From assembly GCF_009914755.1 (NCBI RefSeq), contig NC_060926.1: DNA of 64,000 bases. One strand, written 5' to 3'. Each line of letters starts with the position of its first letter. The first letter of the stretch is position 1. Below, one piece after another: positions 9,220 to 11,347 of this stretch. The position numbers and the translations under genes are program-made. The notes beneath the pieces were generated by a model. The model did not search any database. It was not told the DNA's origin and was given only the letters and a program-made list of their open reading frames with translations. This stretch comes from the human T2T-CHM13v2.0 reference genome, Homo sapiens.

Positions 9220-10773
9220 TCACAGTGTTTTAAAAAGTACATATAATTGTTCTTGTGATAGTTTACTGAGAATGATGATTTCCAATTTCATCCATGTTCC
9301 TACAAAGAACATGAACTCATCATTTTTTATGGCTGCATAGTATTCCATGGTGTATATGTGCCACATTTTCTTAATCCAGTCTATCATTGTTGGACATTTG
9401 GGTTGGTTCCAAGTCTTTGCTATTGTGAATAGTGCTGCAATAAACATACGTGTGCATGTGTCTTTATAGCAGCATGATTTATAGTCCTTTGGGTATATAC
9501 CCAGTAATGGGATGGCTGGGTCAAATGGTATTTCTAGTTCTAGATCCCTGAGGAATCGCCACACTGACTTCCACAATGGTTGAACTAGTTTACAGTCCCA
9601 CCAACAGTGTAAAAGTGTTCCTATTTCTCCACCTCCTCTCCAGCACCTGTTGTTTCCTGACTTTTTAATGATTGCCATTCTAACTGGTGTGAGATGGTAT
9701 CTCATTGTGGTTTTGATTTGCATTTCTCTGATGGCCAGGGATGATGAGCATTTTTTCATGTGTTTTTTGGCTGCATAAATGTCTTCTTTTGAGAAGTGTC
9801 TGTTCATGTCCTTTGCCCACTTTTTGATGGGGTTGTTTGTTTTTTTCTTGTAAATTTGTTTGAGTTCATTGTAGATTCTGGATATTAGCCCTTTGTCAGA
9901 TGAGTAGGTTGCGAAAATTTTCTCCCATTTTGTAGGTTTCCTGTTCACTCTGATGGTAGTTTCTTTTGCTGTACAGAAGCTCTTTAGTTTAATTAGATCC
10001 CATTTGTCAATTTTGTCTTTTGTTGCCATTGCTTTTGGTGTTTTAGACATGAAGTCCTTGCCCATGCCTATGTCCTGAATGGTATTGCCTAGGTTTTCTT
10101 CTAGGGTTTTTATGGTTTTAGGTCTAACGTTTAAGTCTTTAATCCATCTTGAATTGATTTTTGTATAAGGTGTAAGGAAGGGATCCAGTTTCAGCTTTCT
10201 ACATATGGCTAGCCAGTTTTCCCAGCACCATTTATTAAATAGGGAATCCTTTCCCCATTGCTTGTTTTTCTCAGGTTTGTCAAAGATCAGATAGTTGTAG
10301 ATATGCGGCGTTATTTCTGAGGGCTCTGTTCTGTTCCATTGATCTATATCTCTGTTTTGGTACCAATACCATGCTGTTTTGGTTACTGTAGCCTTGTAGT
10401 ATAGTTTGAAGTCAGGTAGTGTGATACCTCCAGCTTTGTTCTTTTGGCTTAGGATTGACTTGGCGATGCGGGCTCTTTTTTGGTTCCATATGAACTTTAA
10501 AGTAGTTTTTTCCAATTCTGTGAAGAAAGGCATTGGTAGCTTGATGGGGATGGCATTGAATCTGTAAATTACCTTGGGCAGTATGGCCATTTTCACGATA
10601 TTGATTCTTCCTACCCATGAGCATGGAATGTTCTTCCATTTGTTTGTATCCTCTTTTATTTCCTTGAGCAGTGGTTTGTAGTTCTCCTTGAAGAGGTCCT
10701 TCACATCCCTTGTAAGTTGGATTCCTAGGTATTTTATTCTCTTTGAAGCAATTGTGAATGGGAGTTCACTCAT
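9220..10773 (-). pseudogene. L1 ORF2p C-terminal fragment (end of RT through C-terminal Cys-rich domain), 517 open codons
   Basis: Hallmark ORF2p sequence [14 protein letters not shown]...[17 protein letters not shown]. No EN domain, RT catalytic core or promoter; the last residues read into the flank. Confidence 0.95.
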
Positions 10774-11347
10774 GATTTGGCTCTCTGTCTGCTGTTGGTG
10801 TATAAGAATGCTTGTGATTTTTGTACATTGATTTTGTATCCTGAGACTTTGCTGAAGTTGCTTATCAGCTTAAGGAGATTTTGGGCTGAGACAATGGGGT
10901 TTTCTAGATATACAATCATGTCGTCTGCATATTCTCACTCATAGGTGGGAATTGAACAATGAGATCACATGGACACAGGAAGGGGAACATCACACTCTGG
11001 GGACTGTTGTGGGGTGGGGGGAGGGGTGAGGGATAGCACTGGGAGATATACCTAATGCTAGATTACGAGTTAGTGGGTGCAGCGCACCAGCATGGCACAT
11101 GTATACATATGTAACTAACCTGCACAATGTGCTCATGTACCCTAAAACTTAAAGTATAATAATAAAAAAAAAAACTAGACAGAATTCTCAGAAAATTCTT
11201 TGTGATGTGTGTATTCAACTCATAGGGTTGAACCTTCCTTTCGATAGAGCAGTTTTGAAACACTCTTTTTTTAGAATTTCCAAGTGGATATTTAAAGTGC
11301 TTTGAGGCCTATGGTAGAAAAGGAAATTAAAAAAAATACATATAATT
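9232..11347. mobile_element. 5'-truncated, 5'-inverted L1PA2/3-like insertion with 3' alpha-satellite transduction, bounded by a 17-bp TSD
   Basis: TSD aaaaagtacatataatt (9232-9248) / aaaaaatacatataatt (11331-11347), preceded by a TTTT/AAAA endonuclease site. 9249-10929 is antisense ORF2; 10927-11174 is sense L1 3' end + polyA with GAG and cttaaagtat (non-Ta) diagnostics. Confidence 0.93.
11170..11327 (+). repeat. Single near-complete alpha-satellite monomer (A-type, no CENP-B box)
   Basis: aaaactagacagaa-ttctcagaaaattctttgtgatgtgtgtattcaactcatagggttgaacc...gatagagcagttttgaaacactc...caagtggatattt...ctttgaggcctatggtagaaaaggaaat follows the 171-bp alphoid consensus colinearly. Confidence 0.93.

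What the first reader, a model, noticed from the sequence alone, without database searches (positions are those of the whole stretch)
9232..11347. L1 insertion that carried a centromeric alpha-satellite monomer into euchromatin (3' transduction plus twin priming)
Seen: one 17-bp TSD pair encloses inverted ORF2, the sense L1 3' end with polyA (to ~11174), ~155 bp of alpha-satellite, and a short A-run. The alphoid sequence starts at aaaactagacag, the A-rich point of the monomer that resembles an L1 endonuclease site. Known: L1 read-through past its weak polyA signal mobilises downstream flank. Inference: the source L1 sat inside an alpha-satellite array and was transcribed and retrotransposition-competent there. 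The tag should identify the donor locus. It shows an RNA-mediated route for seeding ectopic alphoid DNA, about 15 kb downstream of TGFA. The monomer has an A-box (cctatggtagaaaagga) rather than a CENP-B box.
Basis: partly seen in the sequence, partly recalled or inferred. Interest (0 to 1): 0.85.

Follow-up and report, generated by a model that had tools for sequence, protein, structure and literature searches.

The report
L1 insertion carrying one alpha-satellite monomer
A roughly 8-10-million-year-old L1 retrotransposon copy downstream of TGFA carries a single centromere-type alpha-satellite monomer inside its own target-site duplication, most likely picked up by read-through transcription, so this is an ordinary mechanism with an unusual cargo.

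Summary
One 17-bp duplication (16/17 identical) sits at a TTTT/AAAAA site. It encloses an inverted L1 ORF2 piece, the sense L1 3' end with an A11 tail, a solitary 157-bp alpha-satellite monomer, and T plus AA.

Twin priming is shown. In 39 of 39 intact L1 copies the two L1 pieces are adjacent and opposite, with 15 nt missing here and 3 nt of junction overlap.

The monomer is 85-92.5% identical to monomers in tandem pericentromeric arrays. It has no CENP-B core.

L1 3' transduction from an L1 lodged in an alphoid array is the best reading (about 0.78). Twelve in-array L1s in this genome join alpha satellite at the same A-run. It is not proven:
- No donor or sibling exists in this assembly (best monomer 92.5%).
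- There is no canonical poly(A) signal.
- Only 2-3 untemplated A follow the cargo.
- No outgroup genome could be checked.

The alphoid piece is already catalogued as sat_607 (Feliciello 2020: R2/Xm, between L1PA2 and Charlie8, dated to Homininae). That paper attributed such repeats to circular-DNA recombination and saw no retrotransposon role.

This is a new member of a known kind, of moderate interest.

The parts
9228..9231 (.). TTTT just upstream of the duplication. With the AAAAA that follows it forms an L1 endonuclease-type target (bottom strand ...CTTTTT/AAAA).
   Evidence: Read directly. The endonuclease preference is recalled knowledge.
9232..9248 (.). 5' copy of the 17-bp target-site duplication, AAAAAGTACATATAATT.
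   Evidence: 16/17 identical to 11331-11347. Only 1 of 61,800 window positions shows such a repeat at this spacing.
9249..10929 (-). Inverted L1 segment covering ORF2 from the RT active-site region to residue 1261. It has one frameshift near 10770-10869.
   Evidence: 549-aa frame. (ORF2p residues 743-1261, E=0). (RVT_1). (98% identity to 39 of 39 scored L1 copies over query 1-1681).
10927..11163 (+). Sense L1 3' end: the last ORF2 codons plus the 3' UTR. Positions 10927-10929 (GCA) are shared with the inverted piece as junction microhomology.
   Evidence: In intact L1s this piece starts 15 nt after the point where the inverted piece ends.
11164..11174 (+). Internal A11 run. On the transduction reading it is the donor L1's own poly(A) tail. 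Its last 4-5 A also align to the A-run of the alpha monomer.
11171..11327 (+). Solitary alpha-satellite monomer of 157 nt. It is A-type, has no CENP-B core, and has a 3-nt deletion relative to its closest relatives. The literature labels it R2/Xm.
   Evidence: best 92.5%; median 82.5% over 1173 monomer alignments. (no CENP-B core). (only copy in the window). PMC7719264 Table 1.
11328..11330 (+). T plus AA: all that lies between the alphoid end and the 3' duplication, a remnant or near-absent second poly(A) tail.
   Evidence: Native arrays continue with ATCTTCA... after GGAAAT instead.
11331..11347 (.). 3' copy of the target-site duplication, AAAAAATACATATAATT.

Best explanation
The whole block 9249-11330 was placed by one L1 target-primed reverse-transcription event.

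1. The RNA template was a read-through transcript of an L1PA2-type element. That element sat in sense orientation inside an old A-type (R2/SF5-like) alpha-satellite array, inserted at the A-run of a monomer (inferred).
2. The transcript ran past the L1's own tail into about one monomer of alphoid flank (inferred).
3. The L1 endonuclease nicked the TTTT/AAAAA site here (architecture shown). Reverse transcription then copied the alphoid flank, the internal A11 and the L1 3' end.
4. The second nick's 3' end (...AATT) primed internally on the same RNA at the AA after ...CAAGAAC. This produced the inverted ORF2 piece. The two cDNAs were joined at a GCA microhomology with loss of 15 nt (twin priming, shown).

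The way the RNA's 3' end was formed is open. It was either a very short poly(A) tail or priming on the A-rich end of the monomer. The donor has since been lost or is absent from this genome (inferred).
For: - One 16/17 duplication encloses the L1 and the alphoid together. Such a repeat occurs at 1 of 61,800 window positions. The site is TTTT/AAAAA.
- Twin-priming geometry is seen against 39 of 39 scored intact L1 copies: the pieces are adjacent and on opposite strands, with a 15-nt gap and a 3-nt query overlap. The sequences are confirmed, including the TT/AA complementarity at the left junction.
- The alphoid starts exactly at the monomer's A-run, directly after the L1 tail. The same L1-tail/alphoid junction occurs at 12 other places in this genome, all inside tandem arrays. 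Searches found eleven of them. The twelfth, on chr3 at 96.42 Mb, came in with a locus. One search shows the junction-spanning alignments for all twelve. Only 1 L1 tail was found joined at the monomer's other A-rich site. So an in-array L1 would give exactly this read-through product.
- The L1 part is 98% identical to other copies. PMC7719264 calls it L1PA2 and dates the alphoid piece to the Homininae ancestor. Both components therefore date to the same short branch.
- Both flanks are single-copy, so the block is not part of a segmental duplication.
Against: - No donor. Among 1173 monomer alignments in 87 non-self loci the best identity is 92.5% and none exceeds 94%.
- Whole-genome pattern scans with three parts of the monomer gave 9, 106 and 64 non-self hits. 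By my comparison of the printed coordinates (100 of 107 rows printed), only one monomer is in two lists (chr3:90782592-751, 91.25%). A true donor flank should be about 96-98% identical.
- None of the 12 in-array L1 junctions is the donor. Identity across the junction is 83-89%.
- No sibling insertion with the tag was found.
- No canonical poly(A) signal. The only hexamers found are TTTAAA, starting 37 nt before the end of the cargo, and an ATTAAA that is created by the tail itself.
- Only T plus AA separate the cargo from the duplication.
- No outgroup genome could be examined, so co-arrival of the L1 and the alphoid is inferred, not shown.
Confidence: 0.78

Rival explanations
1. Two separate events. 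An L1PA2 inserted first by twin priming, with this duplication. Later a piece of alphoid DNA (circular or filler DNA) was captured by A-run microhomology exactly between the L1 tail and the 3' duplication. This is the recombination model of Feliciello et al.
For: - PMC7719264 section 16 and Table 2: for 10 of 11 embedded euchromatic alpha repeats, an outgroup has the host transposon without the alphoid. DNA-level entry into pre-existing repeats therefore does occur.
- The L1 tail and the monomer share an A-run.
- There is no donor, no canonical poly(A) signal, and almost no second tail.
Against: - It needs two hits within one short branch, because the L1PA2 and the alphoid are both dated to Homininae.
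- The second hit must land precisely in an approximately 15-nt tail of a then very young L1.
- The piece is 157 nt, not a whole 171-nt circle.
- The 'AAC' duplication the paper lists is 3 nt. By my reading it depends on an annotation of 183 bp that runs over the real 17-bp duplication.
- sat_607 was not among the 11 loci tested for co-transfer.
Confidence: 0.1
2. One retrotransposition event, but a chimeric retrocopy. The L1 reverse transcriptase started on a free alpha-satellite transcript and, at the monomer's A-run, switched template to the poly(A) end of an L1 RNA. No L1 ever sat in an alphoid array.
For: - No donor L1 with this flank exists in the assembly.
- The cargo ends in an A-rich stretch with hardly any tail.
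- Template switching by L1 RT and transcription of alpha satellite are both known (recalled, not checked here).
Against: - As I recall them, chimeric retrocopies such as U6/L1 have the L1 part at the 3' end. Here the order is reversed.
- The switch would have to land at the very end of an L1 tail.
- The same junction is what 12 in-array L1s show in genomic DNA. A read-through template is therefore readily available.
Confidence: 0.1
3. Chance juxtaposition or assembly artefact. The duplication is coincidental and the parts are unrelated.
For: The flanks are AT-rich (31-35% GC), which raises chance matches of A/T-rich words.
Against: - Only 1 of 61,800 positions shows a 17-mer repeat of this quality at this spacing.
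- The duplication sits exactly at both outer boundaries and at an endonuclease-type site.
- The same alphoid piece is annotated in hg19 and hg38.
Confidence: 0.02

Closest known systems
L1 3' transduction (read-through past the weak L1 poly(A) signal; Moran 1999, Goodier 2000, Pickeral 2000, recalled; catalogued for this assembly by Hoyt et al., preprint 10.1101/2021.07.12.451456, passages seen)
   Same: The L1 3' end with its own tail is followed by non-L1 DNA. The whole unit lies inside one target-site duplication at an endonuclease-type site.
   Different: - The cargo is a satellite monomer.
- No donor was found.
- There is no canonical poly(A) signal and almost no terminal tail.
- The T2T-Y preprint says it follows Hoyt's approach and masks transduced sequence with RepeatMasker before progenitor matching. 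Such cargo is therefore probably missed (inference).
- Hoyt's Table S13 could not be seen.
Twin priming / L1 5' inversion (Ostertag and Kazazian 2001, recalled)
   Same: - The 5' piece is inverted and the 3' piece is sense.
- The two are contiguous in L1 coordinates, with a 15-nt loss and 3-nt junction microhomology.
- There is 2-nt complementarity between the duplication's 3' end and the internal priming site.
   Different: Nothing unusual. This is a textbook case.
Euchromatic alpha repeat sat_607 (Feliciello et al. 2020, PMC7719264)
   Same: Very probably this same piece. It is on chr2, nearest gene TGFA, 0.9 monomer, type R2/Xm, 'between L1PA2 and Charlie8', at hg38 chr2:70431415-70431597, dated to Homininae.
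   Different: - The paper gives 15,683 bp to TGFA; the annotation here gives 14,660 bp.
- It reports a 3-nt 'AAC' duplication and proposes circular-DNA recombination.
- It states that there is no indication of a retrotransposon role.
- The 17-bp duplication that encloses both L1 and alphoid is not mentioned in the parts I read.
WaluSat carried by an AluSx3 transduction (Hoyt et al. preprint)
   Same: A satellite unit moved to new loci as retroelement 3' cargo.
   Different: The carrier was an Alu, and the unit later expanded into arrays of about 0.45 Mb. Here the carrier is an L1, the unit is alpha satellite, and there has been no expansion.

Membership tests
L1 3' transduction event | The L1 3' end with its own poly(A) is followed directly by non-L1 sequence in sense orientation. 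| tested here: met
   L1 3' UTR, then A11, then the alpha monomer.
L1 3' transduction event | One target-site duplication encloses the L1 plus the cargo, at an endonuclease-type site. | tested here: met
   16/17 over 17 bp, seen at 1 of 61,800 positions. TTTT/AAAAA read.
L1 3' transduction event | The cargo ends in a second poly(A) tail preceded by a poly(A) signal. | tested here: not met
   only T plus AA before the duplication. The only hexamers are TTTAAA 37 nt upstream and an ATTAAA made by the tail itself.
L1 3' transduction event | The cargo matches the 3' flank of a source L1 elsewhere. | tested here: not met
   best monomer 92.5%. The 12 in-array L1 junctions are 83-89% identical. Only this one assembly was searched.
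L1 3' transduction event | Outgroups have an empty site lacking both the L1 and the cargo. | not testable with these tools
   No primate genome other than this assembly is held. PMC7719264 dates only the alphoid piece.
Twin-primed (5'-inverted) L1 insertion | The two L1 pieces are in opposite orientation, contiguous in L1 coordinates with a small deletion or duplication, and joined by microhomology inside one duplication. | tested here: met
   (39 of 39 copies: 15-nt gap, 3-nt overlap)..
Alpha satellite, A-type monomer (R2/SF5) | Full-length similarity to monomers of tandem arrays of about 171 bp. | tested here: met
   (hits spaced about 170 bp apart in arrays). (1173 alignments, 70-92.5% identity).
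Alpha satellite, A-type monomer (R2/SF5) | No CENP-B box at the A/B-box position. | tested here: met
   no core motif on either strand. Shepelev 2015 passage: R2 is type A without CENP-B sites.
Alpha satellite, A-type monomer (R2/SF5) | Assignment to a suprachromosomal family by monomer HMMs. | not tested
   No such models are held. The label R2/Xm is taken from PMC7719264 Table 1.
Recombination-inserted euchromatic alpha repeat (Feliciello model) | A short 2-10-bp duplication flanks the alphoid piece alone, and the host repeat was present before the alphoid. | tested here: inconclusive
   AAC occurs at 11173-11175 and 11353-11355. It is 3 nt long, and the second copy lies outside the 17-bp duplication. 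The order of arrival is not testable here.

The most novel reading that the evidence does not exclude
L1 elements lodged in dead centromere layers were transcribed through their tails. This RNA route seeded a real share of the solitary alpha monomers now scattered in euchromatin, for example the other repeats that PMC7719264 lists as 'adjacent to L1PA...'. The route has been missed because transduction pipelines mask repetitive cargo, and because the satellite survey did not test L1-adjacent cases for co-arrival. sat_607 would be the first worked example. It would also show that an L1PA2 inside an R2-type array was retrotransposition-competent about 8-10 million years ago.
Probability: 0.25. 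Interest if true: 0.55.

Novelty: new member of a known kind. Interest (0 to 1): 0.38.

Why it matters
The finding gives a concrete, checkable alternative origin for one catalogued euchromatic alpha repeat, against a published statement that retrotransposons play no part in their spread. It implies that an L1 inside an old alphoid layer was once expressed and mobile. It also points to a blind spot: transduction scans that mask repeats cannot see satellite cargo.

It does not bear on centromere function. The piece is one monomer, lacks a CENP-B box and never expanded.

Tried and rejected
**Donor search in this assembly**
- Similarity search with the tail plus alphoid (40 of 3830 candidates scored).
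- Two L1-tail/alphoid junction patterns.
- Three monomer patterns with 2-3 mismatches.
- Local BLAST against all 87 non-self loci.
- Result: no donor and no sibling.
- Of one search's 106 non-self hits only 14 were fetched as loci. Of one search's 64, only 29 were fetched.

**Closest-L1 search.** All 39 best copies are about 98% identical and none has pericentromeric coordinates by my recollection of this assembly, so the L1 part does not point to a donor.

**Paralogous empty site.** Both flanks are single-copy, so this test gave nothing.

**Pfam.** The 540-aa ORF2 piece gave no family. The PDB sequence search settled its identity.

**Literature on L1 transduction of alpha satellite.**
- Searches found no paper describing it, within the held library only.
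- The nanomonsv paper concerns centromeric breakpoints in tumours, not transduction of alphoid DNA.

**Internal priming.** I considered priming at the next monomer's A-run. It would need an extra 9-nt deletion, so I left it as an open sub-variant.

Full report
**What is there**

- A 17-bp word, AAAAAGTACATATAATT, at 9232-9248 is repeated as AAAAAATACATATAATT at 11331-11347, 16 of 17 identical.
- The left copy is preceded by TTTT. The target therefore reads TTTT/AAAAA, the kind of site the L1 endonuclease prefers (recalled knowledge).
- As a chance control I slid a 17-mer along the whole window and asked for a copy with at most one mismatch at 2099+-15 nt. Only 1 of 61,800 positions qualifies, and it is this one.
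- Both flanks are single-copy in the assembly, so the block is not part of a larger duplication.

**The L1 parts**

- On the minus strand, 9220-10869 is a 549-aa open frame.
- Translated from 9249, it matches human LINE-1 ORF2 protein residues 743-1261 of 1275 with E=0 (8uw3_A and four further ORF2p sequences among the six matched).
- The neighbouring 54-aa frame (10770-10934, minus strand) reaches the Pfam reverse-transcriptase family RVT_1 (30 bits against a cut-off of 29.6). The 540-aa piece itself matched no Pfam family.
- From 10927 the plus strand carries the last ORF2 codons and the L1 3' UTR, ending in A11 at 11164-11174.

**Twin priming is shown**

I searched the assembly with 9249-11162. 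All 39 scored non-self copies matched query 1-1681 at 98%. Each had a second match, on the opposite strand, starting at query 1679 and lying 15 nt beyond the end of the first (40 of 7917 candidates were scored).

In an intact L1 the two pieces are therefore neighbours. Here one is flipped, 15 nt are lost, and 3 nt (GCA, 10927-10929) are shared at the joint.

. The inverted piece ends at ...GAAC directly against the left duplication. The duplication's terminal TT can pair with the AA that follows GAAC in the RNA. This is the textbook signature of twin priming (Ostertag and Kazazian 2001, recalled).

**The cargo is alpha satellite**

- A search of the assembly with 11100-11347 gave 159 matches (40 of 3830 candidates scored). 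Apart from the locus itself, all covered only the part from query 63-72 onward. They were spaced about 170 bp apart in blocks on chr3, 6, 7, 8, 10, 12 and X. These places are pericentromeric by my recollection of this assembly.
- The best is chr12:34576693-34576852 at 92.5% (148 of 160 columns, including a 3-nt gap).
- Over all 87 non-self loci fetched, 1173 alignments of at least 140 nt had a median identity of 82.5% and a maximum of 92.5%.
- The monomer is the only alphoid sequence in the window. The next-best local match is 21 nt at E=0.008.
- It carries no CENP-B core on either strand.
- Feliciello et al. label it R2/Xm. Shepelev et al. describe R2 as the A-type monomer without CENP-B sites, which formed centromeres in the common ancestor of human and orangutan (passage).

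**It is already catalogued**

PMC7719264 (Table 1, passages; coordinates from the supplement) lists sat_607. The entry reads: 0.9 monomer, R2/Xm, intergenic, TGFA at 15,683 bp, 'between L1PA2 and Charlie8', inserted in the Homininae ancestor, duplicated sequence 'AAC', hg38 chr2:70431415-70431597.

The distance differs from the 14,660 bp I get from the hub's annotation, and I could not lift coordinates over. Chromosome, gene, size, type and the L1PA2 neighbour all agree, so I take it as the same piece.

The paper's mechanism section, read whole, proposes recombination of circular alphoid DNA at 2-10-bp homologies. It says there is no indication that retrotransposons spread these repeats. Co-transfer with a host element was tested for 11 embedded repeats, and sat_607 was not one of them.

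By my reading, the 183-bp annotation runs from about 11173 to 11355. That is across the real 17-bp duplication, and it is how an 'AAC' comes to sit at both ends.

**Why read-through transduction is the best reading**

- The single duplication encloses the L1 and the alphoid together.
- The alphoid begins exactly at the monomer's A-run, straight after the L1 tail.
- Junction patterns found the same junction elsewhere: 7 other places and 9, of which 5 repeat. Together with one locus that came in, that makes 12 distinct places: chr1, chr3 twice, chr7, chr10, chr12, chr16, chr17, and chr13/14/15/21.
- The four acrocentric junctions have near-identical tails and probably stem from one event. All 12 places lie in tandem arrays.
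- The monomer's other A-rich site gave only 1 such junction.
- An L1 sitting in an array in this way would, on read-through, yield just what is seen.
- The L1 part is about 2% from its nearest copies and is called L1PA2 in print. The alphoid is dated to the same short branch. This is easy for one event and awkward for two.

**What speaks against it**

- No donor. None of the 12 in-array junctions matches (83-89% across the junction).
- Whole-genome pattern scans with three parts of the monomer gave 9 non-self hits (34 nt, <=2 mismatches), 106 (34 nt, <=2 mismatches) and 64 (44 nt, <=3 mismatches).
- Comparing their coordinates, only one monomer appears in two lists: chr3:90782592-751, which is 91.25% identical. 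This comparison covered the 100 of 107 rows that one search printed.
- A donor flank should differ by only 2-4%, so it is very probably absent from this genome.
- No sibling insertion with the tag was found.
- The cargo has no canonical poly(A) signal. The only hexamers found are TTTAAA, starting 37 nt before its end, and an ATTAAA that the tail itself creates.
- Only T plus AA lie between GGAAAT and the duplication. Native arrays continue ATCTTCA(C/T)ATAAAAAC at that point.

So the RNA's 3' end either had a very short tail or was primed on the A-rich end of the monomer. This step is unresolved.

**Rivals**

1. Two events. The L1 inserted first and alphoid DNA was captured later at the A-run between the tail and the duplication. 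In the paper's Table 2, 10 of 11 embedded repeats entered pre-existing elements, so this does happen. Here it needs a second hit in an approximately 15-nt target of a then very young L1, within one branch. The piece is also not a whole 171-nt circle. I give it 0.10.
2. Template switching from a free alphoid transcript to the end of an L1 RNA. It gives the same product and would explain the missing donor. However, the order of parts is the reverse of the chimeras I recall, and in-array L1s offer a ready read-through template. I give it 0.10.
3. Chance. I give it 0.02.

**Comparison and novelty**

The mechanisms are known. The closest precedent for satellite cargo is WaluSat carried by an AluSx3 (Hoyt preprint, passages).

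The T2T-Y preprint says it uses Hoyt's approach and masks transduced sequence with RepeatMasker before looking for progenitors. I infer that alphoid cargo would escape such scans. Hoyt's Table S13 might list this locus, but I could not see it because bioRxiv supplements are closed.

Six literature searches turned up no description of L1-transduced alpha satellite in the held library.

I rate this a new member of a known kind. It is a clean worked case that contradicts, for one locus, a published general statement. It has no sign of function or of array seeding.

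Noticed in passing
G000 loci L021/L084, L023, L024, L025/L086, L026/L087, L027/L091, L028/L092, L078, L088-L090, L093: L1 3' ends inside alpha-satellite arrays join the satellite at the same A-run of the monomer at 12 places. Only 1 junction was found at the monomer's other A-rich site (chr5:50985178). 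This suggests one dominant L1 integration point per monomer.
   Followed up: partly
G000 chr13:11474649, chr14:7877063, chr15:14404752, chr21:8536228 (L088-L090, L093): Four acrocentric short-arm copies of one L1/alphoid junction have near-identical interrupted tails. They are probably one insertion spread by segmental duplication.
   Followed up: no
window 9220-10869 (minus strand): The inverted ORF2 fragment keeps a 549-aa frame without a stop, although the insertion is several million years old. There is one frameshift near 10770-10869.
   Followed up: partly
window 11329-11355: The target site (…ACATATAATTACAG) loosely resembles the native continuation of the monomer (…CATATAAAAACTAGACAG in relatives). 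This probably explains why the published annotation is 183 bp long and reports an 'AAC' duplication. It may be chance, or it may have helped priming.
   Followed up: partly
G000 chr8:44232930 and chr8:46341340 (L005/L006, L011/L012, L015/L016): Hits on either side of the chr8 centromere region are pairwise identical in score and alignment. This points to a duplicated alphoid block about 2.1 Mb apart.
   Followed up: no
window 11184-11186 region of the monomer: The monomer lacks 3 nt (TCA/GAA in relatives) after CTAGACAGAA. Nine other monomers in the genome match this 34-nt stretch within 2 mismatches, but none is otherwise close.
   Followed up: yes
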